Source: Parcubacteria group bacterium (GTDB taxonomy: Bacteria > Patescibacteriota > Minisyncoccia > Moranbacterales > UBA2206). From it: a stretch of DNA of 64,000 nt. The stretch covers positions 189,274-253,273 of the forward strand of contig JBAZYF010000001.1 in the NCBI GenBank assembly GCA_041659505.1, given 5' to 3'. Position numbers and translations under genes: made by a program. Of this stretch, positions 2,136 to 27,990 are shown in pieces (within the stretch, counting starts at the first letter, position 1; the number at the start of each line of letters is the position of its first letter). Under the pieces are notes generated by a model, which was not told where the DNA came from, ran no database searches, and saw nothing but the letters and a program-made list of their open reading frames with translations.

Positions 2136-5100
2136 CTACTGAAAATTCAACGCACTAGAATTATTATACAATTGCTTCACTTGTTCGGCGGTGAGGGCGT
2201 AGTTGAAAATTTTGACTTCGTCGATTTGGCCGGAGAAGGGATATGACGGATTCATAGATCCTACTGATACATCACCAGCGTGAAGGTTCCAGTATTTATC
2301 TTCTGACGCCATAAATGCTCCATTTTTATATAAATAAACATCTACGCCGTCATAAACAGCAACAACATGGGTCCAAGTGTTCAAGGGTTGAGTGCCAAAA
2401 GATGTGGGATAATAATCATCACCATAGCTTATAACTCCCAGATAATCATTATCATTAATGGCAATTCCAAATATACCAGCATACCCGGTTTCCCCATACC
2501 AAGCCAATGCTTCAGTATAATTCTGGTCAGCGGTTCTATTAAACCATAATGACATAGTTCTTGGAGCAAAACCTATAGGCAAGTTACTTCCTGATGCTGT
2601 CACATAATCATCCCCCCCATCAAAATTCAAACTGGCGCCGTATTTTCCGGTTCGGCCGTTGTACCAGGGGGTGTTGGCGTTGGCGGAGCAGGTGCCGGCG
2701 GTGGTTTGGCCGGAAGCGCCAAGATTAATCGTGCCATCGTTGCCGTTGCCGGATTCGTCGTGCACTGTGCTTCCCTGACATTCATTAAACCGCCACGCCG
2801 CGACCGGTTTGCCTTGATTATATTCCCAAGCAATCTGCGCCGGTGTGCGGGCGTAGTCATAGATGCGGACTTGGTCGATTTGGCCAGGGAAATAATAAGA
2901 ACTGCCAAGAGAGTTTCCAAAACGCACCGGATAACCTCCAGTATCAAGCGTTTCCGTCGCACTGCCGGCACTTTTTCCATCAACATAGATTTTTTGCGCG
3001 TTACTCGTGCTAGTAAAAGCGACATAGTGCCATTTATTATCCAGCACATCAATGCTGGAAGTCGCACTGCCAGAAGAATCCCCATCAGCAATACAAGTGA
3101 TTGTGTTTCCGCTATACCCAGCTATGCAAGATACGCCAAGCTTACTAACAGTTCCTCCGTATGCGCCGGGCGATCCCTTAAGCCAGAAAGAATATGTTGC
3201 ACCGTTTACAAAAGCAAAATTGTTAGCAGACTCAATATAATCATCCACCCCATCAAACGCGCAAGCTGAGCCGTATTTGCCTTGGGCGGCGCAGTTCATT
3301 CCGGTGGCATTGGCCCCATAATGCGTCGTGCCGTTGTTGCCGTTTCCGCTGGTGTCATAGATCGTTTGATTGTCGCCAGCCACTTTTTCATCCATCTTCC
3401 ATTCCCCCACCGGCGTGGCGCAAGCGGTTGTGTCGCCCGGGACACAATATTTTCCGCTCGAGGCATTAGTCGGCGCGCCGGTCGTCGAGACCGATCCGCC
3501 AGCGCCCATCTGCGCCGACACTCCGGAGTTGTAGTCGGTTTTGATTTCGTCTTCGGTGAGAGCGTAGGGGTAGATTTTGAGATCGTCGAGTTCACCGTTA
3601 AAATAATAGATCGGAACAGCTTCGGAGCTATCTCTTCCAATACTCAAAGGCATCGCTGAATAACTTAGCGCTTGCCCCGGGCCATAGCCATTGGCAGTAT
3701 ATATCATTGAAGTTTCTTTTCCATCCAGATACGCTTTTGCATCTGAAGAATTTCCATTTGTCGGAGAAAATGTCACGACAAGATGGTGCCAAACGCTATC
3801 GGTCACTGAACCAGTCGGCAAGTCCCAATAGGGATAGGCTGATCCTGTCATAATTTCAAATCGCGCATGACCATCATTCATCACGAGCAGTGAATAACTT
3901 TTATTAGAGCTTGTATCCACCGGCTTGTTTACAATTATGCCCGAATCATTTGGAGCCCTTTTTAGCCAGGTAGAAATTGTCAGCGAACTTGGTCGAAGCG
4001 CTGTGCTATCTGACACGTTCACATAATCATTCCCATCAAAACTAAGCGCCTTGCCATTTTTGCCGTCATTGGTCCAAGTTGGCGAGGATGAGCCGACGCC
4101 TAGGTTTCCGGCCAAACTTGTTCCGCCAAAACCGGAATTATGCGCCAAAGAGCCGTAGCCTTCGTTGAAATCATACACAGCGACTGGGTTGTGTTCGCCA
4201 TTGTTCATGTCCTCCAAAATCTGCTGTTGCGTGCGGGCATAGTTGTAGATGCGGAAATCATCAATAGCGCCATCAAAATACCTACTTCCAAATTGCGCAC
4301 CAATTTGCATACTACTACCATCATCAACCGTCCCCGCCACCTGGCTATTTTGAAAAACTCCATCAACATAAAGACTGTTGTTAGTACCCGCATGCAGAAA
4401 TTCTATGTGATGCCAGTTTCCACCACCCACAGCCACATTGGAGACAAGATCACTTCCACCGGGTATAGCAAAAGCAATTTTATTGCCATAGCCCATGGAA
4501 GAATTTAAAACTGCATAGAAATACCAGCCTCTAGTAAATAGCACCGAATTGACTGTTGTATCTTTGCTTTTTGTCCAGAACGAAATTGAAAAATTAGGTT
4601 CCAAGGAAAATGCCGGAATATCCACAACATCATCCACCCCATTAAAGCTCAGCGCCGTGCCGTATTTCCCTGATACAAATGGCGCTGTTACATTCTCAAC
4701 ATTTCCGCCTTCCCAATCATCAATCCGTCCGCTAGTTCCGTACAGTAAAACAAAACCTGACGAACCGCTGGTCAAATTGCTGTCGACATAACTAGTTTTT
4801 TCCACGCCGTTGATATAGCCTTTGAGTGTATTCCCCACGACTGCGAACTTAAAGATATCACCATTGGCCGGCGCAGATATGACCACATTTGCAAGTGTCG
4901 AATTGGAACCGCCAAGTGAGCGACCAAGTATCATCCTCCAACTTCCATCATAAAAAACAAATGCGTAGTAAGTATTTTGAGTAGACCCATCTGATCGACT
5001 CAGGAGACTATATTCCGTGTCGGCATTAACTGTATCTAGTTTTATCTGGGAATATTGATCGGCATTTAAGCTATTAGCATTCCAAATAAAAACACTCGCG

Positions 5101-8048: not shown

Positions 8049-8057
8049 AAGAGGAAC

Positions 8058-8447
8058 TTACTTAATATATCTTCTAACTTCCAAACTTTTTGCTCCGAAA
8101 TTAATCAATAGTCCTACTTTAACTTTATAGGCTTCAATGTAATTTATCAACTGAGCAACATTTACTTCTTCCAGTTTTGTGATGGCTTTTAGTTCTACCA
8201 TGATGTCACCATCAACTAGGAAATCGACTCTTCTTTTACCAATCATCGCGGATTCGTAAAAGATATCCATTTCTTTCTCTCTTTCAAATTTCAAATCTTC
8301 TTTGCTAAATTCTATTTCCAGTGCGCGTTGGTAGATTACCTCTTGAAATCCATTGCCTAGATACTGATGAACTTTTTGCGCACAGCCGATAATCTTTCCG
8401 GTTATGTCGGATTTGTAGTATTTATTGTTGGCATATGTCTGAACCAC
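8058..8447 (-). CDS. GxxExxY family protein (PD-(D/E)xK nuclease superfamily; family known from 23S rRNA intervening sequences)
   Basis: GFQEVIY matches the GxxExxY motif; ~125 aa size; C-terminal GLLINFG. ORF begins at a GTG that lies inside the direct repeat. Confidence 0.7.
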   Translation of the reverse strand: MVQTYANNKYYKSDITGKIIGCAQKVHQYLGNGFQEVIYQRALEIEFSKEDLKFEREKEMDIFYESAMIGKRRVDFLVDGDIMVELKAITKLEEVNVAQLINYIEAYKVKVGLLINFGAKSLEVRRYIK

Positions 8448-8543: not shown

Positions 8544-11500
8544 CTACTGGAAATTCAACGCGCTAGAATTATTATACAGTTGCTTGACTTGTTCGGCGGT
8601 GAGGGCGTAGTTGAAAATTTTGACTTCGTCGATTTGGCCGGGGAAAAAATAGCCATTATTTGAACTACCTAAATAAAGAGGAACTGAATCGCTGGATACA
8701 ATATTGCCAGTAGCAGCGGCATGATTTCTTGCGATGCCATCAACATAAATATAGACATTCGCTCCATCATAAATTCCCGTAATAAAATGCCAACTATTGT
8801 CCCAAACAATATTTCCTGAATCACCAGAAATAACTCCTCCGCTATTCGTAGTATGGACTCCGAACTGTAAATTTCCCGCACTTCCGGTGTACAATAAGTA
8901 CCCATAGCTCAAAGGAGCATCGCTTTTCCACACTAACCCTTCCCAATTTCCTGGGCTACTACTTTTTGCCCACATTGATACTGTCATACTATTCCCTGTT
9001 ATGTTCAAACTTGAACTATTGCTCACCAATGCCCAATCATCCCCCCCATCAAAATTCAAACTGGCGGCGTATTTTCCGGTTCTTCCATTATACCACGGTG
9101 TATTAGCATTGGCACTACAGGTGCCGGTGGTGGTTTGGCCGGAGGCGCCGAGATTTAATGTGCCGGTGTTGCCATTGCCACTGTCATCATGAATCGCCGT
9201 TCCCTGACACTCATTCATCCGCCACTCGGCAATCGGCCGCCCTTGATTATATTCCCAAGCAATTTGTGCCGGCGTGCGGGCGTAGTTGTAGATGCGGACT
9301 TGGTCGATCTGGCCGCCATAAGGATGCTCCCCGATCTGGCTATTGCCGATAGCGAGACCATAGCCGGTTACTGGAGTTCCGGTGTTTGAAGATCCTGACT
9401 GGGCGCCGTTTATATATAAGGTTCCTGTACCATTGCTTAAGCGCACTCCACAAACATACTGCCAAGTATTCAAATTTAAAGTTTTATCCGAAATTACAGC
9501 GCTAGATCCGTCATCGCTAGTTAAAGCCAAATTAGCTCCGTGATTATAGCTCATGAAAACAAATCTTGAGTTGCTGACTATCCCATCAAAAACATTCTTG
9601 CCCTGTGGTTTTATCCAGGCGCAAACAGTGACGGTGTTGGTGGAAATCAGATCAGTTCCGAGAGCCGCATAATCATCCACCCCATCAAACGTGCAGGCTT
9701 TGCCGACTTTTCCCGGTTGGGTGCAATCCATCCCGGTGTTGTTGGCGCCGTCAACGGTTGTGCCGTTGTTGCCGTTGCCGGAAGTGTCGTTGAGGTTTTT
9801 AGCGTCGCCAGATACTTTTTCATCCATCAGCCATTCCCCCACCGGTGCTGAGCATGTCGAAGTGTCGCCCGGCACGCAATACTGGCGTGAGTCGGAATTG
9901 CTAGGAGCGCCAGCCGAAGTCGTCCCGGAACTCCCCACCACTGCTGAGTAGCCGGAGTTGTAGTCGGATTTGACTTCGTCTTCGGTGAGGGCATAATTAT
10001 ATAATTTGACATCATCAAAAACCCCGCCAGCGTAGGCTGGTGAATTATCGAGCGATCTTCCACCAATAATTATTTTTTGGGCTGTTAGGGATTCAATGTC
10101 TCCCGAAAGAGCAAGGCTCGCTTCCAATTTTCCATTAATAAATATTTTTTTAGTATCACTACTGTCAAAAGAAAATACAAAATGATACCATTGTCCGCTT
10201 TGCATAACTGTTGTCCCAGTAGTATCGTGATAACTACCAATCCAATCACTGAAATGAGCTTTATGATCAGGATCTACAGCAACGACCCACTCACCACCCC
10301 AATCACCGCCATTAAAATATTTTGATATTTCACATGATTCCCCTGCGGTCGGCTTGCACCAATAGGAAACGGAAAATTCCGGACGAGCGCCATATGTTCC
10401 TGCATCGACATAATCATTCGTCCCATCAAAACTAAGCGCCTTGCCGTTTTTGCCGTCATTAGTCCAAGTCGGCGCGGATGATCCGACACCTAAGTTTCCA
10501 GCTAAACTTGCACCGCCATAACCGGAATTATGTGCTACAGAGCCGTAGCCTTCGTTGAAATTGTAATTGGCGATTGGTTGACTATTGCCTCCTCCGCCTG
10601 CTGGCTCCGGCGTGCCAAGCATATCATCCAAAATCTGCTGTTGGGTGCGGGCGTAGTTATATACACGGACGTCGTCGATTAATCCTAGAAAAGGATCCTC
10701 GGAAGGACCACTCGCGATATAAAGATCATAGCTAGTATTACCCACCGCCAAATAACTGCCCCAATCATAAGTGTAGGTATTTACACCGTCTACATAATAG
10801 ACAACCTTATAGCCATCATAGGTGGCAGAAACAAAATGCCATTTTCCATCCGTCACAACAGTTGGCGCATTTTGCGCTCTGAACGTTCCGCCGGAAAGAA
10901 TATACAAATACAACCTGCCCAGAGTATCCGTTCCAAACCACCAGCCATTGTCGTTATAGAGTTGCTTTTTGGCAAATAAATTCCAACCTGCGTGAGAACT
11001 ATTAATCCACATGCCGACCGACACGGTGCCGGAACTTTGCAAGCTGGAACCATTGCCACAATTTATCCAATCATCCACCCCATCAAAATTGCAAGCTGAA
11101 CCAAACTTGCCCGGCACAGTGCAATCCATTCCAGTGGTGTTGGCGCCGTAGTGGGTGGTGCCGTTATTGCCATAAGTCGAATCATCAGCAATCGTTTTTG
11201 CGTCCCCTTGTACTTTTTCATCCATCTTAAGATGCAAGACCGGCCCGGGTGCCCATTCGTAGAGTTTTTTAATTTCAGAAGGAGAAAGCGCGCGGTTGTA
11301 GATACGGGTTTCGTCGATTTTTCCCGGAAAATAATAATTACCTCCACCAATATATTCCCCCATTCTAACATTTGGGGTGAGTAAAGATAACGTAGCCGAA
11401 GTTTGATTATTTTTTTCGCCGTTTAGGTACATAATCAGATTCTTTCCCGAAAAATCATACACTATTGAAAAATGATACCAAGTATTCTGGGTAATTGTTC

Positions 11501-13884: not shown

Positions 13885-13910
13885 GTAGAGACGAGGCACT
13901 GCCTCGTCTT
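13885..13910. repeat. PE copy GTAGAGACGAGGCA-c-TGCCTCGTCTTGG, ~20 nt upstream of the LamG2 ATG
   Basis: on the gene strand: ...CGTCTCTACgggggaataataaaatttgaaaATG. Confidence 0.75.
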
Positions 13911-18600: not shown

Positions 18601-21162
18601 GATGCGGGTTTCGTCGATTTGGCCATCAAAAAAATAAGTAGTCATTTGGCCAATTTGAGCGCCGTTTCCCGAATCAGCTCCAGTATTTATATCTGGAACA
18701 CCTGTTGAAATTCTTGTACCCTGACTCACGCCATTAACAAAAACTTCTTGCAATTTCGTATTACGTTTAAATGTGGCAACAATATGATACCAAGTATCTG
18801 CTTCCATTAACTTAACATTATCAAAATCATCACCATAAAAACCAAAGGTTAGATTATTACTATTACCTCTAATCCCTAATGAAACGCGCCTATCAGTGCC
18901 ATTTGCATCGCCTATGTCAAAAAACCATTGATATCTATCAAGAGTATCTATTTTAATCCATGATTCAATTGAAAAATCGCCCGTATCAAAAGTATTAATA
19001 TATGGTGCTTGCACATAATCATCCACCCCATCAAAACTCCCCCCATTCCCAAATTTTCCTCCGGCGGTCGTGACGCCTCCGGCGGATGTTCCGTTATTAT
19101 TGTTGCCACTGGCATCTTTCACTTCTCCGCTCGTGCCGTTCCAACTCGCTTCGTCCATTTTCCAATAGCCGACCAGGCCGTCGGTCAGCCATTTTGTTGA
19201 CTCTGAACCGAAAGCAGCCGACGCGCCTTGGGGGGCGCTTTGGCTTGCCAAGCCTGCATTATAATCCTGCAAAATCTGCGCTTGCGTGCGGGCGTAGGGG
19301 TAGATTTTAACTTCATCGATATAGCCGGGAAAAAATTCGTGGTAAGAGCCACTTGAATAATAGGCTCCGATGATGACCTGCTGATCATTGACAACATTTA
19401 TACCCCCGCCATATGATCCATTATATTGAGAATCAAACTTGCCATTAATATAAAGCTTCTGATAACCAGTCGTCGCATCGTATGTTGCAGACATATAGTA
19501 CCACTTATTAATTTCCAGTGTCCCACCGACTAAATAGTCTCCGGTTATTACTGGCTGCTCTGTTTCATCCAGAGTGGTATAATAATTGAAAGTATCCAAT
19601 CCTTTATTTACAACAGTCTTAAAATTCGCATTATCCGCTGTCAATTTGATCCAATGACTGACAGTATAGCCATTGGGTGAATCCAGTGAATTACTATCTG
19701 GAATTGTCGCATAAGCGCTGGTTCCGTTGAAATATAGACACCCTCCACTCACACACTCACTCTCCGGCTTCCACGTCGCACCGGTGATGGTGCCGTTGTT
19801 TTTGTTTGATGTTTCGTCGTGCGCCGTTGTGCCTTGGCCTTCGTCGAATGACCAATAGCCGACCGGTCCGCCGGGGCTAGTTTCCTGCTTTCCCGAAACA
19901 GTCAAAAACGCCAATGGATTATTCTGATTAGCATATTCCGTGGCGATCCATTCGGGGTTGCGGACAGTGTTGGAAATTTTAACTTCTTCAATGCTTCCTG
20001 GAAATTGACTTGTATAACCCTGCCTCGCTCCAATAACAAACCCGTTACCAATGTGCCAAGGATCATCAATATCAGTCGGTCCCGCAACAAGATTGCCATT
20101 GATATATAACTTTGCCATATTATCAACGTCTATTGTCGCACAAACATATTGCCACTGGTCAAGTATGATACTGCCATTTGCACTATTTAGAACGCCTCGA
20201 TTATTATAAATGTTTAAATAATAAACCCCACCATCATTACCCATATTAAACTCGAAATCAGCATCACCAATAAATTGAGACATCCAACTATCATCCGCTT
20301 GTGGCTTTATCCAAGCGCAACCCGTTATCGGATAATCATCCAAGTCAACAGCTGTATCCACATAATCATCCCCCCCATCAAAATCCAACCCTTTCCCCAC
20401 TTTCGCGTCAACCGAATCCCCACTCGTCATTGTGCCATTACTTGTTCCATTGTTCGCGTTAGCGGTGGAGTCCAGCATTTGCGGAGCCGTGCCCGAAGGA
20501 TCCTGGTTCATATGTTGGACCATTTTGTAGTTTCCATCCCACACATTCATTTTGTCTTGTTGGCTAGTGGCGGTAGCATTGCCATAGTAAAGATAAATTT
20601 CCGTATCTTTGGCTTGAGTGAGATTGGGTAATTTTACCCAAGCAATGAGGGCGCCAGTGCCGGAGGTGTAGGATTCGATTTCGTGCGAGAGTTTTTTTCC
20701 GGTGGAATCGGTGAATACCAAATCATCGCCGTCTGTTTGAGCACCGGTGATGAGATTGGTGTCCGTGATGGAAACTAGCACCGGAAAGTTTTGCAACTCC
20801 CCTGCCACTTGGGATTTATTGATGGTGATTTTTTTGCGAAATCCCCAAGTGTCGTTCCACCAGGAGGCTTGGGTGTTTCTTCCTGAGAAGAAAAAATAGA
20901 TGGGTAAAATTATGAGGACGAGAAGAATGGCAAGGGCTACTTGCCTGTAAGCCACCCAGTGGCGCAAGCTTGCGCCACCGGGTGGCTTCGGAGAACCGGA
21001 AGTTAAGGTCGGACCTTTTGGGTGCCTAAGGTCCGACCTTAGTTTTTTCAAAAATCTGGCAAATTTAAACAGGCCACGGAGGATGGTTAGCATTGTGCGT
21101 TGGAATTTTTGTTTTAGGGTTGGCATTTTTGAATTTTTTGTTTCCCTGTAGAGACGAGGCAC
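15667..21162 (-). CDS. giant cell-surface protein LamG3: TM + DUF2341 + six LamG domains. The ORF-caller start is a GTG inside a PE; the likely true start is the ATG at ~21126 (MPTLKQKFQR...)
   Basis: N-terminus after residue 12 matches LamG1/2. DUF2341 signature ASWWNDTWGFRKKITINKSQV...NFPVLV...YLYYGN. Six LamG motif repeats; shared C-terminus. Confidence 0.85.
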   Translation of the reverse strand: MPRLYRETKNSKMPTLKQKFQRTMLTILRGLFKFARFLKKLRSDLRHPKGPTLTSGSPKPPGGASLRHWVAYRQVALAILLVLIILPIYFFFSGRNTQASWWNDTWGFRKKITINKSQVAGELQNFPVLVSITDTNLITGAQTDGDDLVFTDSTGKKLSHEIESYTSGTGALIAWVKLPNLTQAKDTEIYLYYGNATATSQQDKMNVWDGNYKMVQHMNQDPSGTAPQMLDSTANANNGTSNGTMTSGDSVDAKVGKGLDFDGGDDYVDTAVDLDDYPITGCAWIKPQADDSWMSQFIGDADFEFNMGNDGGVYYLNIYNNRGVLNSANGSIILDQWQYVCATIDVDNMAKLYINGNLVAGPTDIDDPWHIGNGFVIGARQGYTSQFPGSIEEVKISNTVRNPEWIATEYANQNNPLAFLTVSGKQETSPGGPVGYWSFDEGQGTTAHDETSNKNNGTITGATWKPESECVSGGCLYFNGTSAYATIPDSNSLDSPNGYTVSHWIKLTADNANFKTVVNKGLDTFNYYTTLDETEQPVITGDYLVGGTLEINKWYYMSATYDATTGYQKLYINGKFDSQYNGSYGGGINVVNDQQVIIGAYYSSGSYHEFFPGYIDEVKIYPYARTQAQILQDYNAGLASQSAPQGASAAFGSESTKWLTDGLVGYWKMDEASWNGTSGEVKDASGNNNNGTSAGGVTTAGGKFGNGGSFDGVDDYVQAPYINTFDTGDFSIESWIKIDTLDRYQWFFDIGDANGTDRRVSLGIRGNSNNLTFGFYGDDFDNVKLMEADTWYHIVATFKRNTKLQEVFVNGVSQGTRISTGVPDINTGADSGNGAQIGQMTTYFFDGQIDETRIYNRALSPAEIKKLYQWAPGPVAYWKFDEKTGQNFYNSEQPTGEGVLGTTSSAEAEDPVWTTGKYGSALVFDSSVPDEANFPDSGTNSPYDFQLGKTITISLWVNPEAYAGESNLIFKGATLNENYGFALIGAYPTLYYRRVDNSDWSSWQVASAGVPLNEWSYLTLEYTFGQGSSIKAFLNGNPVSGSWVSGTGNEAPIANDNAGFVFGTSSWDEALKGKMDDVRIYNYARTQQQILEDMLGTPEPAGGGGNGQPIVNYDFNEGYGSVAHNSGLGCRDASQCVSTNANLGVGSSAPTWTNDGKNGKALSFDGVNDYVSVPDSTALRPAALTLSTWIKQNGGGGTMINKAYGTTSGKSYSFSTTCLYAGGTHFEIQTNNGYPYWETPCGTLPYPDNNWHHLVVTFSPVRGDASDSKTYIDGKEIATIYSANGYGAGGSLQYSSDDLNIGRNNSYDPPINYFGGQLDDVKIYPYALTEDEIKTDYNSGASAQWGSAGTAASTGAPTNSAGGEYCVPGDTTACAAPVGEWKMEEKVKGDAKTIYDTSGNGNNGTTHYGANTTGMDCSVPGKAGTACSFDGVDDYADLGNDPSIQLTHTGTVSAWVKFTTSTVNWPAIVGNANWDTDRNGYMLFANGDNPGDFALQLHDSSSYIYIVSDKNGYNDNSWHYVAGTFDGSYLRIYVDGISAATPVAQTLDVVSGVYNLTVGKDPATSADYWTGQIDQVRIYNYARTPAQIAWEYNQGQPVAQWNFDECQGATVHDESLNRNDGTINLGASGQTTAGTCSANADTPWYNGRTGKYGASLNFDGVGDYVNAGSPVALDNMATFSACAWIYPTKTDALIVAKHGLSYFGWDLYIWNTNHLGMSIANTTSDYIALRETPDNLIVFNSWQYVCGVYSGGIGANSVHLFINGEEIVAAYTNRGSGTRIDDSSGDVFMGDNTYSSYPFGGKIDEVKIFNYALTAEQVKQLYNNSSALNFQ
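17747..17774. repeat. PE copy inserted in frame inside the LamG3 CDS (GTAGAGACGCAT-tgcg-ATGCGTCTCTAC)
   Basis: encodes CRDASQCVST. Paralogs LamG1/LamG2 have ..SLAGNLGVGSS.. here with no palindrome; flanking DNA aligns on both sides. Confidence 0.8.
20951..21040. repeat. two further palindromes inserted in frame in the LamG3 N-terminal region: 36-bp palindrome centred on AAGCTT, and a paired AAGGTCGGACCTT/AAGGTCCGACCTT
   Basis: adds ~35 aa (LRSDLRHPKGPTLTSGSPKPPGGASLRHWVAYRQV) absent from LamG1/2/4 between the basic leader and the TM helix. Confidence 0.7.
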
Positions 21163-21355: not shown

Positions 21356-22642
21356 TCAGACGGTTTCCAAAATCCACCGCCAGGCCGGAATAATTCGAAT
21401 TTTTTTGCCCTTGATTTTGATTTCCTCTTCCTGATCCATCGTGATGATTGTTCCGGTTTTCAATTTGAATTTCTCCAGCGCTTCAAGAAGACCATCAATT
21501 TCTCGTTGGTGATTCTTTTCATTTAGATTATAACACACTTGGTAGGCTTTTTTTATCTTCAAGCCGTCTTTCACCACAAAATCACATTCATGCTTTTCGC
21601 TGTAATAGAAAATTTCTTGTCCGCTTCGCAGGAGTTCCAAAAAAACCAGGTTTTCCAAATAGCATCCGCTATTTTCTGAAAAAGCAAAACCGATCTTGCC
21701 GACCAGTCCGCTATCAACGCAATAGATCTTGCGCCGGTTGGCATTTTGCTTGTGCAGGGAATAATCAAACTTTTTCAAGTCATAAAACAAATGGGCCTCT
21801 TTCAAAAGTTCCACATATTCTTTGGCGGTATGCTCATGGATATGAAGCATCTTAGCCAAACTGTTGTAGCTAAAAAGGCGAGCGGTGTTGCTGATTAAAA
21901 AATAGGCGGCTTGCTTGAGATTGTATGAATCCCTGATTTCATTATTATCAATGACGTCTTTTAGGATTATCGTTTGATAGTAGGCCTCGAGGACTGCGGC
22001 ATCACCTGTCATGACCGCTACCGGAAAACCTCCTTGACGCAAATATTGCTCAAACAAATTAGCCAGCTTATTTTTGAATGCGAAGTTTTTGGCATAGGAG
22101 GAAAAGAATTCTTGTTTTTTCGCCGTCAAAAATTCCTTGTAGGAAAAAGGAAAGACTGTTTGGGCAAAGTAACGTCCGGACAGGCGCGAAATATATTTTC
22201 CGGCAAGCAAATTCGCGTTAGAACCGGTAATGAAAATTTTTTGGAAAACCCGCGCGTCATATTTCGCCTTAACCCATTTTTCCCAAAACTGGATATTTTG
22301 CACTTCGTCCAGAAACAGATACTTGATTTTTTTGCCGGTTAGCGTTTCAGCTATTTCGATTATTTCGTCTAATTTTTCCGCTTTTTTATAGAAAGATAAA
22401 AAGACCGGGTTATCAAAATTAACCAGCAGGATTTCTTCGGGATGAGTTTTGCACTTAGCCACCAGCTCACTGATCAATAAATTAAAAATTACCGACTTCC
22501 CACTTCTTCTCACACCGGCAATCACTTCAATAAAATCGCTCTTCAGTCTGACTTTTTCCGTGGCCGCTCGAAAAACATAGCCCGCTTCCGCTTGTGTTCG
22601 CCAATGGCTGTTTTGCTCTAAAATTATATTTTTTAAGTCCAT
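21356..22642 (-). CDS. COG1373-type AAA+ ATPase with DUF4143-like C-domain, ATPase3
   Basis: GVRRSGKSV Walker A, LFLDEVQN Walker B, C-terminal HECDFVV. Confidence 0.8.
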   Translation of the reverse strand: MDLKNIILEQNSHWRTQAEAGYVFRAATEKVRLKSDFIEVIAGVRRSGKSVIFNLLISELVAKCKTHPEEILLVNFDNPVFLSFYKKAEKLDEIIEIAETLTGKKIKYLFLDEVQNIQFWEKWVKAKYDARVFQKIFITGSNANLLAGKYISRLSGRYFAQTVFPFSYKEFLTAKKQEFFSSYAKNFAFKNKLANLFEQYLRQGGFPVAVMTGDAAVLEAYYQTIILKDVIDNNEIRDSYNLKQAAYFLISNTARLFSYNSLAKMLHIHEHTAKEYVELLKEAHLFYDLKKFDYSLHKQNANRRKIYCVDSGLVGKIGFAFSENSGCYLENLVFLELLRSGQEIFYYSEKHECDFVVKDGLKIKKAYQVCYNLNEKNHQREIDGLLEALEKFKLKTGTIITMDQEEEIKIKGKKIRIIPAWRWILETV

Positions 22643-22702: not shown

Positions 22703-22728
22703 CGCGTCCGAAAAATCATTGTTTCAGA
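22703..22728. repeat. partial LamG 3'-flank module downstream of the LamG4 stop
   Basis: CGAAAAATCATTGTTTCAGACTACTGG. Confidence 0.55.
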
Positions 22729-25700
22729 CTACTGGAAATTGAGCGCGCTGGAATTATTATACAATTGCTTCACTTGTTCGGCGGTGAGGGCGTAGTTGAA
22801 AATTTTGATGTCGTCGATTTGGCCGTTCATTGCATTACCAAATTTTAAATGATCAGGAGAATTTCCGACAGAAGAAGGCCCCATGTCTAATTCACTTGTT
22901 AGTGCCTTATCGACACCGTCAATGTAAACATGATTTATAGTTGGACTGCCAGCTTTCCATGTCCAAGTAAAATGAACCCATTTCTCCTTTTCCCATGTAT
23001 AATCCGTAACCCAGTAATAAGAGGCAACCGCACTGCTTGTTTGTCGAACTGCAACATACGGATGGTTTCCCGTAAAGGATGTGATTATATAACTAGGATT
23101 TGTCTCCCACTTTTCCAGGGGCGTTATTGCTAATGTTGCTCCCGAGCTCAAAAAATACCAAAAAGAAATCGTCAATGAGGTTGCTCCATCTAATAACGAA
23201 ACATCGCCAATATCTGCATAATCATCCCCCCCATCAAAATTCAAACTTGCGGCGTATTTTCCGGTTCTTCCATTATACCATGGCGTGTTGGCGTTGGCAC
23301 TGCAGGTGCCGGTCGTTGTTTGACCGGAGGCGCCAAGGTTGATTGTGCCGTTGTTGCCGTTGCCGGAATTATCGTGCACGGTTCCACCTTGGCATTCGTC
23401 AAATTTCCATTCGGCAATCGGTTTGCCTTGATTATATTCCCAAGCGATTTGCGCCGGTGTGCGGGCGTAGTTGTAGATGCGGACTTGGTCAATAGAACCG
23501 TTTAAAAATGAACCAGAATTAGTGTTGTGGCCAATTTGTATGGGTAAATTGTTTAGCGATGCATTGCAACCACCGGCTCCATCTCCTTTATCTAATAATC
23601 CGTTCAAATAAAATTTCGTACTACTCGGAGTCTCCACTATCGAAAAATGTGTCCACTGATTATTAGGAATTGTATTATTTCCCAAAACCCAGCCGGTGAC
23701 ATCGGAATAAAATATCAAGCGACCGTCATCATGATTCGTCGCCAGATACCATCGTTGGCCACTGCCTGATTGTTGATTGATAAAATAGTTATTTTGTGAC
23801 CTTATTGCCGCTTTAATCCAACCGCTGACTGTAAAACTAGAACTGCCTATGCTGAAATTTCCTGTGTCTGTAGCATCATCCACCCCATCAAACGAACAAG
23901 CGCTACCGACTTTTCCTGGGACGGTGCAATCCATTCCGGTGTTGTTGGCGCCGTCGTTGGTGGTGCCGTTGTTTCCGTTGCCGGAGGTGTCATAGATCGT
24001 TTGGGCATCGCCCGCCACTTTTTTATCCATCAGCCATTCCCCCACCGGTGCCGCACAAGGCTCAGTCGAACCCGGCACGCAATAGACGCCAGAAGTTGAA
24101 TTGGTCGGTGAGCCAGTCGTTGCAACTGTCCCCGCCGAACCCCACTGCGCCGAAGCACCGGAGTTGTAGTCAGTTTTAATTTCGTCTTCGGTGAGAGCGT
24201 AGGGGTAGATTTTGACGTCGTCGAAAAGCGCGTTAGTATAATATGAATTTGCATTACTATTGGCTATGCGCAAGCTTCTTCCAGCATTATTCACACTCAC
24301 TGTCCCAATGCTAGTCGTTTTTTTGTTTTTCCCATCTACATATAGTTTCAGATTTGTGCCTTCCCGTAAGCCAACCACATGATACCAATTATTTAGAGAA
24401 TGAGTGTCTGGATCGACAACTGTATAGCTTGTTGATCCACTTTCAATTGCGAAAAAAAATTTATCAGTCTCCCCGTCTGAACAAAGATTTATTACCCATT
24501 CATTATTTCCCGGTGAAGATCCGGTATCCCATTTATTAACTCCCCAAACATTATTCCAATTAGAACAAGCTGATTTTTTATTAACCCAAAAAGAGACCGA
24601 AAAATCATTGGCGCCAAAATCTAAAAGAGCATTGTCCGGCACTTCCGCATAATCATCATCCCCATCAAACTCCACGGCTTTGCCATTTTTTCCATTTTTC
24701 TCCCACATTAAAGCTACGCTATTATTAGCGCCGCCTCCAGCGATTAGGTTGGCATTTAATACTGCTCCGCCATAACCAAAATTATGCGCCACTGAGCCGT
24801 AGCCTTCGTTGAAATTGTAATGGGCGATTGGCTGACCATTGCCTCCTCCGCCTGCTGGCTCCGGCGTGCCAAGCATATCCTCCAAAATCTGCTGTTGCGT
24901 GCGAGCGTAGTTGTAGATGCGGACGTCATCGATTTGGCCACCGCAATAACCACCCCAATCATCCCGTCCAATTCTTAATTCTTGGCCACTATCGGAAACA
25001 TATGCACCGACACCATTTTGTTGGGATTGATAACCAGTCACTTTTGTGCCATCAAGATAAATCGATACACCCGAAACATCATCTCCTCCTAAAAAAGACA
25101 CCGCCACAAAATGAGATTTTCCATCTCCAGGAATTACCGAGTTAGTTACGATCCTTAAATCCGTATCACGGTTAATCCCGAATTGAATACGGCCTGCTTC
25201 ATCTGCTGTAAGGTACCACGAAACATTATTCGAAGCTCCTTTGGTTAAAAAAGGAACGTAATCGGTGCTATTCTTTACCCAGGCACTAGCGGAAAAAGTT
25301 TTTTGTGACAAATCAATCATCGCCACTGGGTTGGGAACAGAAACATAATCATCCACCCCATCAAAGTTACAGGATGAGCCAAACTTCCCCGGCGTGGTGC
25401 AATCCATTCCGGTGGTGTTAGCGCCGTAGTGGGTGGTGCCGTTGTTGCCATAGGTGGAATCATCGGCGAGGGTTTTTGCGTCGCCTTGAACTTTTTCATC
25501 CATCTTGAGGTGCAAGACCGGACCGGGTGCCCACTCGTAGAGTTTTTTAATTTCATCAGGCGAAAGCGCGCGGTTGTAGATGCGGGTTTCGTCGATTTGG
25601 CCATTGAAATCATATGGCGCATTATCACTTATTCCACCTATTTGAAATCGTGAGTCGCCCTCCCAATTCAGCGCTCCAACACTATTACTATTATCATACT

Positions 25701-27990
25701 GCCCATTAATATAAAGTTTCTGACTAGTAGAATCTGACACTAAAACTACATGGGTCCATTTTCCTACAATGTTACCCGATGTAATTGAATTCAGATTATG
25801 ATTTGAACCATCATAAATATTTGATACTACTACTCCGGACGATGTAATACCTACCCACGCATCTGATGAAGCCACATTCACTGCTCTATTATTAGAAACG
25901 CCGCTGGGTGCTACGGACGGCTTTATCCAGGTAGATATTGTTATATTAGGGAAAAGCGCCGGGCTCATTGGATTTTTTATTACATAATCATCCACCCCAT
26001 CAAAACTCCCCCCATTCCCAAACTTTCCCCCGGCGGTTGTGGCGCCTCCGGCAGATGTTCCGTTATTATTGTTACCGCTAGCATCAATCACTTCCCCACT
26101 CGTGCCGTTCCAAAGACTCTCGTCCATTTTCCAATAACCGACCAGGCCGTCGGTGAGCCATTTGCTTGACTCTGAACCGAAAGCAGCCGACGCGCCTTGG
26201 GGGGCGCTTTGGCTTGCCAAGCCTGCATTATAATCCTGCAAAATCTGCGCTTGCGTGCGGGCGTAGGGGTAGATTTTTGGTTCGTCAATGGAGCCGGAAA
26301 AGAAATCATAATATCCGCCCTGATCATCCGCGCCGACAACAACCTTATTAGAATTAGAAATAATGGCACCACTAGGATTTCCGGTATTAACATCCTGTTT
26401 TCCATTAATATACATCTTGCACATTGATCCATCGTAAGTCGCCATTATATGATACCAAGTATTTACCGATAATGCAGTAGCGGAAGTTATATAAACTGTC
26501 CAGCCACCCTCTGATGTTTTTAAAAGAAATAAAACATTTCCATCGGAATTTATGTCTATTTTATATTCTTGCTCTTTGCCAGCAATTACATAAATATTTC
26601 CTAGCGAAGGAGTTGCATTTATTTTTACCCAAGCTCCAATAGTAAGGGTAGAAAGTCCACTTAAGCCAGTTGCATTACCCATATCCACATAATCACTCGT
26701 CCCATCAAATCCCAAACACTTCCCACTCACACACTCACTCTCCGGCTTCCACGTTGCACCGGTGATGGTGCCGTCGTTACTGCTTGAACTTTCATCGTGG
26801 GCAGTCGTTCCTTGGCCTTCGTCGAATGACCAATAGCCAACCGGTCCGCCGGGACTTTGTTCCACTTTTCCACTGACCGACAAAAACGCCGAAGGGTTGT
26901 TTTGATTGGCATATTCGGTGGCGATCCATTCGGGGGTGCGGACGGAATTGGAAATTTTTACTTCTTCAATATTTCCTGGAAATTGACTTGTATAACCCTG
27001 CCTCGCTCCAATAACAAACCCGTTGCCAGCGTGCCAAGGATCATCAATATCAGTCGGCCCCGCAACAAGACCGCCATTGATATATAACTTTGCCATATTA
27101 TCAACGTCTATTGTCGCACAAACATATTGCCACTGATCAAGTATGATGCTGCCAAATGCACTATTTAGACCGCCTCGATTATTATAAATGCTTAAATAAT
27201 AAGCCCCACTATCATTACCCATATTAAACTCGAAATCAGCATCACCAATAAATTGAGACATCCAATTATCATCCGTTTGTGGCTTTATCCAGGCACAACC
27301 CGTAATCGGATAATCATCCAAGTCAACAGTCGTATCAACATAATCATCCGTCCCATCAAAATCCAACCCCTTCCCCACTTTCGCGTCAACCAAATCCCCA
27401 CTCGTCATTGTTCCGCCCGAAGTTCCATTATTAGCATTGCTCGTCGAATCAGTCATCTGCGGAGCAGTGCCCGAAGGATCCTGATTCATATGTTGCACCA
27501 TCTTGAAATTTCCATCCCACACATTTGTTTTGTCTTGCTGGCTCGTCGCCGTAGCATTGCCGTAATAAAGATAAATTTCCGTGTCTTTGGCTTTGGTTAA
27601 ATTTGGCAATTTTACCCAAGCAACCAGAGCGCCCGTGCCGGAAGTATAAGATTCAATTTCGTGCGACAGTTTTTTGCCGGTGGAATCCGTGAACACCAAA
27701 TCATCGCCGTCGGTTTGTGCGCCGGTGATGAGGTTGGTGTCGGTGATGGAAACGAGGACAGGAAAGTTTTGCAGTTCGCCCGCCACCTGAGATTTGTTGA
27801 TGGTGATTTTTTTTCTGTAGCCCCAGGTGTCGTTCCACCAGGAGGCTTCGGTGTTTCGGCCGGAGAAGAAAAAATAGATGGGTAAAATTATGAGGACAAT
27901 TAAAACAAGCGACAACAAAGCACGCTTTTTGCGAGGAGAGAAAAGACGGCGGGTGTAATTTTTAATTTTGAATTTTGAATTTTGAAACAA
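22729..27990 (-). CDS. giant cell-surface protein LamG4: TM + DUF2341 + six LamG domains; 5' end atypical (TTG start inside a repeat, conserved MPTLKQKF leader missing)
   Basis: DUF2341 block nearly identical to LamG3. Shared C-terminus. No in-frame ATG before the TM helix; the N-terminus is encoded by the AATTTTGAA repeats. Confidence 0.75.
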   Translation of the reverse strand: MFQNSKFKIKNYTRRLFSPRKKRALLSLVLIVLIILPIYFFFSGRNTEASWWNDTWGYRKKITINKSQVAGELQNFPVLVSITDTNLITGAQTDGDDLVFTDSTGKKLSHEIESYTSGTGALVAWVKLPNLTKAKDTEIYLYYGNATATSQQDKTNVWDGNFKMVQHMNQDPSGTAPQMTDSTSNANNGTSGGTMTSGDLVDAKVGKGLDFDGTDDYVDTTVDLDDYPITGCAWIKPQTDDNWMSQFIGDADFEFNMGNDSGAYYLSIYNNRGGLNSAFGSIILDQWQYVCATIDVDNMAKLYINGGLVAGPTDIDDPWHAGNGFVIGARQGYTSQFPGNIEEVKISNSVRTPEWIATEYANQNNPSAFLSVSGKVEQSPGGPVGYWSFDEGQGTTAHDESSSSNDGTITGATWKPESECVSGKCLGFDGTSDYVDMGNATGLSGLSTLTIGAWVKINATPSLGNIYVIAGKEQEYKIDINSDGNVLFLLKTSEGGWTVYITSATALSVNTWYHIMATYDGSMCKMYINGKQDVNTGNPSGAIISNSNKVVVGADDQGGYYDFFSGSIDEPKIYPYARTQAQILQDYNAGLASQSAPQGASAAFGSESSKWLTDGLVGYWKMDESLWNGTSGEVIDASGNNNNGTSAGGATTAGGKFGNGGSFDGVDDYVIKNPMSPALFPNITISTWIKPSVAPSGVSNNRAVNVASSDAWVGITSSGVVVSNIYDGSNHNLNSITSGNIVGKWTHVVLVSDSTSQKLYINGQYDNSNSVGALNWEGDSRFQIGGISDNAPYDFNGQIDETRIYNRALSPDEIKKLYEWAPGPVLHLKMDEKVQGDAKTLADDSTYGNNGTTHYGANTTGMDCTTPGKFGSSCNFDGVDDYVSVPNPVAMIDLSQKTFSASAWVKNSTDYVPFLTKGASNNVSWYLTADEAGRIQFGINRDTDLRIVTNSVIPGDGKSHFVAVSFLGGDDVSGVSIYLDGTKVTGYQSQQNGVGAYVSDSGQELRIGRDDWGGYCGGQIDDVRIYNYARTQQQILEDMLGTPEPAGGGGNGQPIAHYNFNEGYGSVAHNFGYGGAVLNANLIAGGGANNSVALMWEKNGKNGKAVEFDGDDDYAEVPDNALLDFGANDFSVSFWVNKKSACSNWNNVWGVNKWDTGSSPGNNEWVINLCSDGETDKFFFAIESGSTSYTVVDPDTHSLNNWYHVVGLREGTNLKLYVDGKNKKTTSIGTVSVNNAGRSLRIANSNANSYYTNALFDDVKIYPYALTEDEIKTDYNSGASAQWGSAGTVATTGSPTNSTSGVYCVPGSTEPCAAPVGEWLMDKKVAGDAQTIYDTSGNGNNGTTNDGANNTGMDCTVPGKVGSACSFDGVDDATDTGNFSIGSSSFTVSGWIKAAIRSQNNYFINQQSGSGQRWYLATNHDDGRLIFYSDVTGWVLGNNTIPNNQWTHFSIVETPSSTKFYLNGLLDKGDGAGGCNASLNNLPIQIGHNTNSGSFLNGSIDQVRIYNYARTPAQIAWEYNQGKPIAEWKFDECQGGTVHDNSGNGNNGTINLGASGQTTTGTCSANANTPWYNGRTGKYAASLNFDGGDDYADIGDVSLLDGATSLTISFWYFLSSGATLAITPLEKWETNPSYIITSFTGNHPYVAVRQTSSAVASYYWVTDYTWEKEKWVHFTWTWKAGSPTINHVYIDGVDKALTSELDMGPSSVGNSPDHLKFGNAMNGQIDDIKIFNYALTAEQVKQLYNNSSALNFQ

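What the first reader, a model, noticed from the sequence alone, without database searches (positions are those of the whole stretch)
2136..27990. Tandem array of four giant six-LamG surface-protein paralogs with near-identical ends and hypervariable interiors
LamG1-4 share domain architecture and motif order. Their 5' ~140 bp and 3' ~110 bp plus immediate flanks are ~85-100% identical in DNA, and the conserved strand-motif blocks recur in the same order. The interiors between those blocks are strongly diverged in sequence and length. The interleaved ATPase paralogs are only ~35% identical. Conserved termini beside diverged neighbours point to ongoing gene conversion or cassette exchange, as in other surface-protein variation families. 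In a small-genome organism this would be a host- or partner-interaction repertoire.
Basis: partly seen in the sequence, partly recalled or inferred. Interest (0 to 1): 0.75.

Follow-up and report, generated by a model that had tools for sequence, protein, structure and literature searches.

The report
Mosaic multi-lectin surface gene array
Four neighbouring giant genes of a small-genome (CPR/Patescibacteria) bacterium encode membrane-anchored chains of 6-7 lectin-like LamG domains whose junctions are kept alike, partly by gene conversion, while the ~110-residue centre of each domain differs completely. This is probably a repertoire of about 26 binding modules, and the same pattern recurs across this bacterial radiation.

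Summary
The array is real: four head-to-tail minus-strand paralogs (1753-1954 aa) with an N-terminal membrane helix, DUF2341 and 6, 6, 7 and 7 Laminin_G_3 domains. AAA_14/DUF4143 ATPase genes and one PDDEXK_3 gene lie between them.

Identity is periodic along the whole gene. Each LamG has a conserved frame (64-93% aa between same-position paralogs) and a ~110-aa core that is only 23-35% identical to every other core.

Fourfold-degenerate sites match 66% in frames but 28-30% in cores, where saturation predicts 27%. Quartet-informative sites form runs supporting all three topologies (0 of 10,000 shuffles as clustered). One tract with dS 0.14 carries a whole core between G3 and G4, beside sequence with dS 0.94. 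So recombination has occurred.

Frames are also under strong purifying selection. They are 54-77% identical to other genomes at near-saturated synonymous sites. Conversion is mostly old, and nothing points to a programmed switch or a DGR.

Homologues, tandem arrays and the same frame/core pattern occur in many CPR phyla.

Verdict: observation partly confirmed, interpretation partly supported. This is a new variant of a known kind, of moderate interest.

The parts
2136..8000 (-). G1, 1954 aa: membrane helix, DUF2341, a non-LamG_3 'type A' domain (6711-7508), 6 LamG_3 domains and an extra ~190-aa insert (4716-5303). Cores: L1 6177-6548, L2 5454-5816, L3 4308-4619, L4 3633-4013, L5 2922-3230, L6 2268-2597. 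Frames: K1 5823-6149, K2 4626-5426, K3 4020-4280, K4 3237-3605, K5 2604-2894.
   Evidence: identical to P0002, named 'DUF2341 domain-containing protein [Parcubacteria group bacterium]'
8544..13868 (-). G2, 1774-aa ORF; by homology with G1 the likely ATG is at 13862. Type A N-domain at 12573-13370 and 6 LamG_3 domains. Cores: L1 12042-12410, L2 11361-11687, L3 10722-11060, L4 10062-10403, L5 9351-9662, L6 8676-9026. Frames: K1 11694-12014, K2 11067-11333, K3 10410-10694, K4 9669-10034, K5 9033-9323.
15667..21162 (-). G3, 1831-aa ORF; by homology the likely ATG is at 21126. 7 LamG_3 domains. Cores: L1 20035-20355, L2 19363-19704, L3 18661-19008, L4 17983-18348, L5 17254-17646, L6 16489-16851, L7 15799-16164. 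Frames: K1 19711-20007, K2 19015-19335, K3 18355-18633, K4 17653-17955, K5 16858-17226, K6 16171-16461.
22729..27990 (-). G4, 1753 aa with a TTG start and a divergent extreme N-terminus. 7 LamG_3 domains. Cores: L1 27013-27333, L2 26332-26682, L3 25639-25977, L4 24976-25338, L5 24268-24642, L6 23536-23865, L7 22861-23211. Frames: K1 26689-26985, K2 25984-26304, K3 25345-25611, K4 24649-24948, K5 23872-24240, K6 23218-23508.
19963..20403 (-). Recent conversion or duplication tract in G3; its partner in G4 is 26941-27381. It carries the whole first LamG core at 90-100% nt identity, with dS 0.14.
   Evidence: the adjoining N-terminal region of the same pair has dS 0.94
26941..27381 (-). G4 partner of the recent G3/G4 tract.
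2110..2231 (-). Conserved 3' block of G1: the last 32 codons (GQIDEVKIFNYALTAEQVKQLYNNSSALNFQ*) plus ~25 nt downstream. Equivalent blocks lie at about 8518-8639 (G2), 15641-15762 (G3) and 22703-22824 (G4). Identity is 87-92% nt in all pairs.
250..1632 (-). ATPase1 (AAA_14 + DUF4143; PADLOC PDC-S01). A neighbour of the array, probably not part of the LamG system.
14180..15478 (-). ATPase2 (AAA_14 + DUF4143; PDC-S01), between G3 and G2.
21356..22642 (-). ATPase3 (AAA_14 + DUF4143; PDC-S01), between G4 and G3. 41% aa identical to ATPase2.
8058..8447 (-). PDDEXK_3 nuclease-family gene (129 aa) between G2 and G1, flanked by ~49-nt direct repeats (8001-8048 and 8435-8483).
13888..13910 (.). One of ten copies of the palindrome GAGACGAGGCAnTGCCTCGTCT that flank the giant genes. 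The others start at 1019, 2007, 2065, 13992, 15597, 21151, 49430, 49718 and 49863.
   Evidence: 20 strand-matches found, 0 expected

Best explanation
This is a tandem family of four genes for N-terminally membrane-anchored, extracellular multi-lectin proteins of the DUF2341 + LamG_3 family, which is widespread in Patescibacteria/CPR.

Each LamG (ConA-like jelly-roll) module has two parts:
- A frame: the first four strands, the last strand plus helix, and a position-specific Gly/Ser/Ala-rich spacer joining it to the next module.
- A core of ~110 residues, about ten strands with their loops.

Proposed mechanism:
- The four paralogs are old.
- Their cores evolve fast under weak or diversifying constraint, and have passed the point where homologous recombination can act on them.
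- The frames are held by strong purifying selection and are intermittently homogenised among paralogs by short-tract gene conversion. A tract occasionally still carries a whole core.
- The outcome is one conserved chassis displaying about 26 unrelated binding modules.

Shown here: the architecture, the fold, the age difference between frames and cores, the mosaic phylogeny, and the generality across CPR.

Inferred: surface exposure, a role in binding partner, host or substrate surfaces (probably glycans), and selection for diversity.
For: - Architecture:
  - Pfam Laminin_G_3 and DUF2341 hits; 26 LamG units delimited.
  - Hydrophobic N-terminal helix, read directly from the sequence.
  - AF2 model of one unit has pLDDT 87.7.
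  - Foldseek top hits are lectin-type domains: clostridial neurotoxin HCN, arabinanase AbnA domain 4 and trans-sialidase, TM 0.7-0.78.
- Frame/core contrast:
  - Same-position frames are 64-93% aa identical; different-position frames are 32-49%.
  - Cores are 23-35% identical to every other core regardless of position. The exceptions are G3.L1=G4.L1 (91%) and G1.L4~G3.L5 (52%).
  - Boundaries are sharp, at FDGxDDY and GxIDE.
- Different ages:
  - Fourfold sites at identical residues match 752/1124 (0.67) in frames and 128/425 (0.30) in cores. The saturation expectation is 0.27.
  - Restricted to columns identical in all four genes, the figures are 587/888 (0.66) against 40/144 (0.28).
- Recombination:
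  - Quartet-informative sites change pattern 39 times against 61.7 +/- 4.4 expected, 0 of 10,000 shuffles as low, and all three topologies are represented.
  - The closest pair changes from block to block.
  - G3/G4 core L1 has dS 0.14 beside a region with dS 0.94.
  - Out-of-register junction copies are 72-78% nt identical over ~160 nt.
- Purifying selection on frames:
  - dN/dS is 0.05-0.2.
  - Frames are 54-77% aa identical to other genomes.
  - Against the L077 array they are 66-75% aa identical with a fourfold match of only 316/858 = 0.37.
- Fast cores:
  - dN/dS is 0.39 in the recently shared core.
  - 69% of 1354 cores from 311 family proteins have no relative at >=50% identity.
- Generality:
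  - 264 confirmed homologous stretches in GTDB species genomes of many CPR phyla.
  - 20 of 60 loci carry 2-4 tandem copies.
  - The same periodic profile appears in other arrays.
  - The same fourfold contrast appears in L077, L008, L020 and L003.
Against: - Apart from the G3/G4 tract, frame dS is 0.3-1.0, so conversion is infrequent or old.
- NG86 estimates near 1 are imprecise.
- In three other arrays (L044, L031, L022) frames are conserved at the amino-acid level although their fourfold sites are close to saturation. Selection alone can therefore produce the periodic amino-acid pattern.
- If the paralogs are ancient, orthologous cores should be recognisable in related genomes. Only two cores have better matches elsewhere: G4.L5 at 57% to P0008 and G3.L6 at 50% to L068. 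Core replacement from outside is therefore not excluded.
- Core alignments are poor. I reduced this problem by using invariant anchor columns, but could not remove it.
- There are no population, expression or binding data. Surface location and function are inferred.
Confidence: 0.6

Rival explanations
1. Recent duplication plus cassette import. The four genes are young duplicates, with frame dS <= 1. Nearly all cores were later replaced by recombination at the conserved junctions with diverged LamG cores from other loci, strains or species. This would be a population-level exchange of binding modules.
For: - Cores are saturated at synonymous sites while frames are not.
- Boundaries are sharp.
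- G4's second half of K4 plus core L5 is closest to a protein from another genome (P0008, 57%) rather than to its own paralogs at ~25-30%.
- The core pool is huge and mostly singletons.
- Within-genome frames are younger than the split from the L077 lineage.
Against: - It needs about 24 of 26 cores to have been replaced independently.
- No donor copies are visible in the 72 kb available.
- No close relatives with swapped cores were found among 5.8 billion proteins, where the nearest non-self hit is 40%, or in the metagenome scan.
- Junction identity to other genomes is only 54-77% aa at near-saturated synonymous sites, which is poor substrate for homologous recombination.
Confidence: 0.2
2. 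No recombination at all. Ordinary duplication was followed by strong purifying selection on structurally essential junctions, and by relaxed or diversifying selection on the rest of each LamG domain.
For: - Junctions are position-specifically conserved across phyla.
- dN/dS is 0.05-0.2.
- Arrays L044, L031 and L022 show the amino-acid pattern with near-saturated synonymous sites in frames.
Against: - It cannot explain a fourfold-site match of 0.66 in frames against 0.28 in cores within the same genes.
- It cannot explain the clustered conflicting quartet signal.
- It cannot explain a dS of 0.14 beside 0.94 within one gene pair.
Confidence: 0.1
3. A programmed variation system: antigenic-variation-style cassette switching, or a diversity-generating retroelement (DGR) acting on the LamG cores. 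The interleaved nuclease or ATPase genes might assist it.
For: - Nuclease-related genes (PDDEXK_3, AAA_14/DUF4143) or Avd-family 23S_rRNA_IVP genes recur next to these genes in several genomes.
- Palindromes flank every gene.
Against: - There is no reverse transcriptase or template repeat in the window.
- Mismatches show no adenine bias: A is involved in 32 and 21 of 119.
- Cores differ by many indels over ~110 aa.
- All four genes are complete ORFs and there are no silent partial cassettes.
- No site-specific recombinase is present.
- The longest exact identities are 50-59 nt.
- The ATPases match a candidate defence family and are absent from 69 of 75 related loci.
Confidence: 0.04
4. Assembly artefact: chimeric joins between strain variants at repeated junctions create apparent mosaics.
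For: The sequence comes from a metagenome assembly (k141 contig name), and repeats are present.
Against: - Exact repeats between paralogs are at most 59 nt, or 112 nt for G3/G4. That is below k=141.
- The ENA contig and the window are 100% identical over 18 kb.
- The same pattern is seen in more than ten independent assemblies from other phyla, including complete chromosomes.
Confidence: 0.02

Closest known systems
DUF2341/LamG ('concanavalin A-like lectin') giant proteins of CPR/Patescibacteria, noted in the literature as putative adhesion or host-interaction proteins (PMC11809585, PMC11310336). DUF2341 has been linked to type IV pilus-associated adhesins (PMC4858521).
   Same: Same protein family. 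DUF2341 and Laminin_G_3 hits, an N-terminal membrane helix, and full-length homologues at 28-40% identity in many CPR phyla. G1 itself is deposited as 'DUF2341 domain-containing protein [Parcubacteria group bacterium]'.
   Different: The papers I found treat these only as large adhesin-like proteins. None described the tandem arrays, the position-specific conserved junctions with hyperdiverse cores, or the conversion evidence (the search was limited).
Flagellin-type architecture: conserved termini, hypervariable central domain (from general knowledge)
   Same: Conserved structural ends with sharp boundaries, and a surface-exposed middle whose divergence is saturated and which shows recombination.
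   Different: Here the motif repeats 6-7 times within one polypeptide, once per LamG domain, and in four tandem paralogs. There is no filament assembly role.
Multigene surface-protein families diversified by segmental gene conversion, such as Neisseria pilE/pilS, Borrelia vlsE, Anaplasma msp2 and Mycoplasma MgPa repeats (from general knowledge)
   Same: Paralogous copies with conserved stretches that allow recombination, variable stretches in between, and mosaic phylogenetic signal.
   Different: No expression site with silent donors: all four copies are complete genes. Conversion acts mainly on the conserved parts, so it homogenises rather than diversifies. Tracts are mostly old. Within-population switching has not been shown.
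Concerted evolution with conversion-free diverged segments in duplicated genes. This is the population-genetic model in which selected or diverged segments escape conversion (from general knowledge).
   Same: Lower synonymous divergence in segments that still recombine, saturated divergence in segments that do not, and sharp boundaries.
   Different: This is a generic model, not a specific system. Here it applies in a regular, domain-periodic way.
Diversity-generating retroelement (DGR) targets, which are common in CPR
   Same: Hypervariable ligand-binding parts of surface proteins in small-genome symbionts. An Avd-family (PF05635) gene lies inside the related array L077.
   Different: No RT or template repeat, no adenine-specific pattern, variation with indels over whole ~110-aa cores, and a lectin jelly-roll rather than a C-type-lectin or Ig target fold.
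PADLOC PDC-S01 candidate defence ATPases (AAA_14 + DUF4143), for the interleaved genes
   Same: All three ATPases match PDC-S01 profiles end to end (E 1e-60 to 1e-113).
   Different: This concerns the neighbouring genes only. A functional link to the LamG genes is not supported, since the ATPases are present in 6 of 75 related loci.

Membership tests
CPR DUF2341 + multi-LamG_3 giant surface-protein family | DUF2341 domain near the N-terminus | tested here: met
   PF10102 hits above the gathering score in all four genes (29.6-49.1 bits against 23.4)
CPR DUF2341 + multi-LamG_3 giant surface-protein family | Multiple Laminin_G_3 (ConA-like) domains | tested here: met
   6-7 stretches per protein, E 1e-135 to 1e-166. 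26 units delimited. AF2 model with pLDDT 87.7 and lectin-fold matches.
CPR DUF2341 + multi-LamG_3 giant surface-protein family | Full-length homology to proteins of Patescibacteria genomes | tested here: met
   Matches over residues ~5-1750 at 29-37% identity in Falkow-, Roizman-, Shapiro-, Komeili-, Levy-, Woese-, WWE3, Saccharibacteria and other MAGs. 188 proteins with E <= 1e-20.
CPR DUF2341 + multi-LamG_3 giant surface-protein family | Extracellular or surface location and an adhesive function | not testable with these tools
   Only an N-terminal hydrophobic helix followed by ...TEASWW is seen. There are no experimental data.
Gene-conversion-homogenised (concertedly evolving) tandem paralogs | Segments with lower synonymous divergence than the rest of the same genes | tested here: met
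   Fourfold match 0.66-0.67 in frames against 0.28-0.30 in cores. dS 0.14 against 0.94 within G3/G4.
Gene-conversion-homogenised (concertedly evolving) tandem paralogs | Spatially clustered, mutually incompatible phylogenetic signal | tested here: met
   39 pattern changes against 61.7 +/- 4.4 expected, 0 of 10,000 shuffles as low, with all three quartet topologies in runs.
Gene-conversion-homogenised (concertedly evolving) tandem paralogs | Paralogs within a genome more alike, at silent sites, than orthologous segments between genomes | tested here: met
   Within-genome frames 0.66; window against L077 frames 0.37. Recent duplication gives the same result, so this alone does not prove conversion.
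Programmed antigenic-variation cassette systems | One expression site plus silent or partial donor cassettes | tested here: not met
   All four copies are complete ORFs with start regions. No partial copies were found in intergenic DNA.
Programmed antigenic-variation cassette systems | Variants switching within one population | not testable with these tools
   No read data. The two available assemblies are identical.
Diversity-generating retroelement target | Nearby reverse transcriptase and a template repeat | tested here: not met
   No RVT hit in any window ORF scanned. No extra copy of a variable segment in intergenic DNA.
Diversity-generating retroelement target | Adenine-specific substitutions | tested here: not met
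   Of 119 G3/G4 mismatches, A is involved in 32 (G3) and 21 (G4), and transitions dominate.
PADLOC PDC-S01 (interleaved ATPases) | Full-length match to PDC-S01 profiles with AAA_14 + DUF4143 | tested here: met
   E 1.2e-60, 1.8e-113 and 1.8e-110. Pfam AAA_14 and DUF4143 hits. Defence activity was not tested.

The most novel reading that the evidence does not exclude
The position-specific conserved junctions work as built-in recombination sites for a combinatorial lectin-display system. LamG cores would be exchangeable modules drawn from a very large pool in the population or pan-CPR. This would let episymbiotic bacteria re-tool partner or host recognition domain by domain. The mobile nuclease, ATPase or Avd-like genes that recur beside these genes might promote the exchange.
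Probability: 0.15. Interest if true: 0.8.

Novelty: new variant of a known kind. Interest (0 to 1): 0.55.

Why it matters
CPR/Patescibacteria are mostly uncultured, small-genome bacteria thought to live attached to other cells. How they recognise partners is an open question.

This locus, with its two giant neighbours, devotes at least 55 kb of a 656-kb contig to huge surface proteins. The analysis shows that these proteins share a regular design that recurs across the radiation: a constrained chassis carrying dozens of unrelated lectin-like modules.

That gives concrete, testable candidates for specificity determinants, namely the ~110-aa cores. It also predicts that cores, not junctions, track host range. 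Finally, it offers a clean natural example of domain-periodic concerted evolution in which conversion is confined to junctions.

Tried and rejected
1. Metagenome scan with the invariant 23-mer of the 3' block (TTCAACTACGCCCTCACCGCCGA). It gave three loci, none with any further similarity to the window, so they are chance hits. No strain variants were obtained.
2. Looking for allelic differences between assemblies. The ENA contig is 100% identical to the window over 18 kb, and an exact look-up of G4 found nothing.
3. Source look-up through the Ddl protein. It is not on record.
4. A two-domain alignment for structure prediction. Overlapping units pulled the alignment out of register, so I dropped it for single-domain units.
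5. AF2 model of the 'type A' N-terminal domain of G1/G2. It reached only pLDDT 45.5 and is unusable. Lenient Pfam scans of that domain and of the G1 insert found nothing.
6. Rfam (no hit) and tRNA scan (none).
7. Promoter and terminator scans were uninformative.
8. DGR hypothesis rejected: no RT and no adenine bias.
9. A co-duplicated [ATPase + LamG] unit as the explanation was not supported. ATPase coding DNA is almost unalignable while the adjoining LamG ends are ~90% identical, and the ATPases are rarely linked in other genomes.
10. The 7019-aa neighbour is unrelated to G1-G4 and has no Pfam domain.
Full report
**What is there.** All genes in the region lie on the minus strand. In the direction of transcription the order is:
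- a 7019-aa ORF (49575-28516);
- G4 (27990-22729, 1753 aa);
- ATPase3 (22642-21356);
- G3 (21162-15667, 1831-aa ORF; likely ATG at 21126);
- ATPase2 (15478-14180);
- G2 (13868-8544; likely ATG at 13862);
- a 129-aa PDDEXK_3 gene (8447-8058);
- G1 (8000-2136, 1954 aa);
- ATPase1 (1632-250).

Each of G1-G4 has a DUF2341 hit and 6-7 Laminin_G_3 stretches, with whole-protein E-values of 1e-135 to 1e-166. A profile built from the repeats delimits 6, 6, 7 and 7 LamG units, 26 in all.

The N-termini carry one hydrophobic helix (..ALAILLVIIILPIYFWFSGR.TEASWW..), read directly from the sequence. There is no C-terminal anchor motif.

The ATPases are AAA_14 + DUF4143 and match the PADLOC candidate defence family PDC-S01 end to end. 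They are 41%, 28% and 26% identical to each other.

The rest of the window (50-64 kb) holds housekeeping genes: Lgt, a Mur ligase, an aminotransferase, a NUDIX protein, Ddl, a TrmB-family regulator and an M23 peptidase.

The sequence is identical over 18 kb to ENA contig ERZ27247358:k141_801829. G1 is on record from a 656-kb contig as 'DUF2341 domain-containing protein [Parcubacteria group bacterium]'.

**Checking the observation.** The 3' claim holds. The last ~96 coding nt plus 22-40 nt downstream are 87-92% identical in all six pairs.

The 5' claim holds only in part:
- G1, G2 and G3 share MP(K/T)LKQKFQR... at 85-88% nt identity.
- G4 has a different start.
- G3 has an insertion.
- Upstream non-coding similarity exists only between G2 and G3 (83%).

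Nothing is near 100% identical.

More importantly, the termini are not special. In a codon alignment scanned in 40-codon windows, identity alternates along the whole gene between 70-97% and 30-45% nt, the latter being essentially random. Interior blocks reach 91% over 324 nt.

The conserved blocks run from the last strand and helix of one LamG (G.IDEV.IYNYALT..EI...Y), through a position-specific Gly/Ser/Ala-rich spacer, to the first strands of the next LamG (VGYWKMDE...SGNGNNGT...GK.G.A..FDG.DDY). The transitions at FDGxDDY and GxIDE are abrupt. I call these blocks frames, and the ~110 residues between them cores.

**Frames against cores.** Same-position frames are 64-93% aa identical among the four paralogs. 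Frames at different positions are 32-49% identical, so register is preserved.

Cores behave quite differently. All 26 are 23-35% identical to one another whether or not they occupy the same position. The two exceptions are G3.L1 = G4.L1 (91%) and G1.L4 ~ G3.L5 (52%).

An AF2 model of one unit (G2 residues 670-876, built with the 26 units as its alignment) has pLDDT 87.7 and pTM 0.87. It is a jelly-roll with a C-terminal helix. The frame supplies strands 1-4 and the last strand plus helix, and the core supplies about ten strands.

Its best PDB matches are lectin-type ConA-like domains: clostridial neurotoxin HCN, arabinanase AbnA domain 4 and the trans-sialidase lectin domain, at TM 0.7-0.78.

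**Selection or recombination?** Both are present.

*Purifying selection on the frames is clear.*
- dN/dS is 0.05-0.2.
- The same position-specific frames are 54-77% identical in proteins from other genomes whose cores are only ~27-40% identical.
- Against the nearest related array (L077, JGI 3300044802), frames are 66-75% aa identical while fourfold sites match only 316/858 = 0.37, close to the saturation value of 0.27.

*Selection alone does not explain the data within the array.*
- Fourfold-degenerate third positions at identical residues match 752/1124 (0.67) in frames and 128/425 (0.30) in cores. Fisher p is 1e-5 to 1e-9 per pair.
- To guard against misalignment in the cores, I repeated the count on columns where all four genes share the residue, such as the invariant Gly of the 'Y.NG' motif. 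The result was 587/888 (0.66) against 40/144 (0.28). Frames and cores therefore have different coalescence ages.
- Along the frames, quartet-informative sites occur in runs supporting each of the three possible topologies. There are 39 changes of pattern against 61.7 +/- 4.4 expected, and 0 of 10,000 shuffles were as low, even with the N-terminal part excluded.
- The closest pair changes from block to block.
- Within the G3/G4 pair, the DUF2341 region has dS 0.94 (dN/dS 0.05), but the adjoining first LamG core has dS 0.14 (dN/dS 0.39) and 90-100% nt identity. This is a recent conversion tract that carried a whole core.
- Junction sequence has also been copied out of register. The N-frame after K2 in G2 and G4 resembles the K4/K5 type at 72-78% nt over ~160 nt.
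- An assembly chimera is unlikely. Exact repeats between paralogs are at most 59 nt, or 112 nt for G3/G4, which is below the assembler's k of 141.

**Generality.** A scan of one genome per GTDB species found 264 confirmed homologous stretches. The best 75 loci come from Falkow-, Roizman-, Shapiro-, Komeili-, Levy-, Woese-, Amesbacteria, WWE3, Saccharibacteria and others. Many are labelled 'uncultured Gammaproteobacteria', probably a placeholder.
- 20 of 60 loci hold 2-4 head-to-tail copies at ~5 kb spacing.
- Pairwise profiles of those tandem paralogs show the same periodic pattern.
- The fourfold-site contrast recurs in L077, L008, L020 and L003.
- In L044, L031 and L022 the frames are conserved in protein sequence with nearly saturated silent sites. 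The amino-acid pattern therefore comes from selection, with conversion added to varying degrees.
- Among 1354 LamG cores from 311 family proteins, 69% have no relative at >=50% identity.
- The ATPases accompany the family in only 6 of 75 loci.

**Most likely mechanism.** The paralogs are old tandem duplicates.
- Their cores evolve fast and have diverged beyond the reach of homologous recombination.
- Their frames are structurally or functionally constrained and are still similar enough to be converted among paralogs in short tracts. Rarely, a tract still carries a whole core.
- The product is one conserved chassis displaying about 26 different lectin-like modules. By analogy and from the literature on CPR LamG/DUF2341 proteins (PMC11809585, PMC11310336, PMC4858521), its role is presumably attachment to partner or host surfaces.

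I put this at about 0.6. The main rival, at about 0.2, is recent duplication followed by import of foreign cores at the junctions. It is favoured by the G4 K4/L5 segment, whose closest relative lies in another genome (57%). It is disfavoured by the number of replacements required and by the lack of donors or strain variants.

The remaining rivals are poorly supported: pure selection, programmed switching, a DGR (no RT, no adenine bias) and assembly artefact.

**Novelty.** The protein family and its presumed adhesive role are known. My limited literature searches found no description of three things:
- the domain-periodic frame/core architecture;
- its conservation across CPR phyla;
- the evidence that junctions evolve in concert while cores do not.

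This is a new variant of a familiar theme, the variable surface-protein family with conserved recombining segments. It is not a new kind of system.

**Limits.**
- There are no read-level, expression or binding data.
- NG86 dS values near 1 are imprecise.
- Core alignments are weak.
- Only 72 kb of the genome was available.

Noticed in passing
window 1019-1041, 2007-2029, 2065-2087, 13888-13910, 13992-14014, 15597-15619, 21151-21173, 49430-49452, 49718-49740, 49863-49885: A 22-23-nt perfect palindrome, GAGACGAGGCAnTGCCTCGTCT, occurs ten times where none is expected by chance. The copies lie in the intergenic DNA flanking the giant genes, often within ~20-60 nt of a start or stop codon. One copy sits in frame inside ATPase1, between its two domains. 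There is no Rfam match. It could be a REP-like element, an operator or an RNA hairpin.
   Followed up: partly
window 8001-8048 and 8435-8483, around the PDDEXK_3 gene at 8058-8447: The small PDDEXK_3 gene between G2 and G1 is bracketed by ~49-nt direct repeats (96% identical), with an inverted partial copy at 8501-8544. It looks like an insertion into the G1 leader with duplication of the target sequence.
   Followed up: partly
L077 11582-12199; loci L062, L060, L066, L015, L017, L057, L065, L018, L058, L068 (23S_rRNA_IVP); L011, L035 (PDDEXK_3); L003, L014, L041, L055, L059, L070 (AAA_14): Small genes of the kinds found in rRNA intervening sequences lie immediately beside the multi-LamG genes in many unrelated CPR genomes, often just upstream. 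They include 23S_rRNA_IVP (the Pfam family that also holds DGR Avd), PDDEXK_3, and AAA_14/DUF4143 ATPases. I did not test whether this exceeds chance given their copy number.
   Followed up: partly
window 28516-49575 (minus strand): A 7019-aa ORF directly upstream of the array. It has no Pfam hit, is rich in Gly/Thr/Ser/Ala (46% of residues), and is unrelated to G1-G4. GC content rises to 0.54 in its middle, against ~0.45 in the LamG genes and 0.38-0.43 in the housekeeping part.
   Followed up: partly
L076 17984-25865 (beyond the window's left end): Downstream of ATPase1 lie a 220-aa ORF and another giant gene of at least 4218 aa, whose only hit is a sub-threshold Amidase_6 match. The island of giant genes therefore spans more than 57 kb of a 656-kb contig.
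   Followed up: partly
window 1748-1903 and L076 18740-18896: A ~155-nt non-coding segment downstream of G1 is repeated at 95% identity, in inverted orientation, upstream of the next giant gene.
   Followed up: no
window 4716-5303 (G1 residues ~900-1095): G1 alone carries an extra ~190-aa domain (..DDFNRAGPTLGSNWTEV..) between its second and third LamG. A similar sequence forms the N-terminal domain of paralog H4 in L077 (..FFDDFNRGTALDTSKWTATG..). There is no Pfam hit. By eye it resembles another ConA-like jelly-roll family.
   Followed up: partly
window 6711-7508 (G1) and 12573-13370 (G2): In place of the first LamG, G1 and G2 have a 'type A' domain with the same conserved-ends, variable-middle pattern. 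Its middle starts with a CBM4/9-like motif (NPGFETG...W). The same domain and pattern occur in P0005, P0006, P0009, P0010 and P0011. The AF2 model was too poor to use (pLDDT 45).
   Followed up: partly
loci L001, L005, L008 and many others: Many contigs carrying this typically CPR gene family are titled 'uncultured Gammaproteobacteria' or 'Pseudomonadales'. These are probably placeholder or mistaken taxonomic labels in those deposited MAGs.
   Followed up: no
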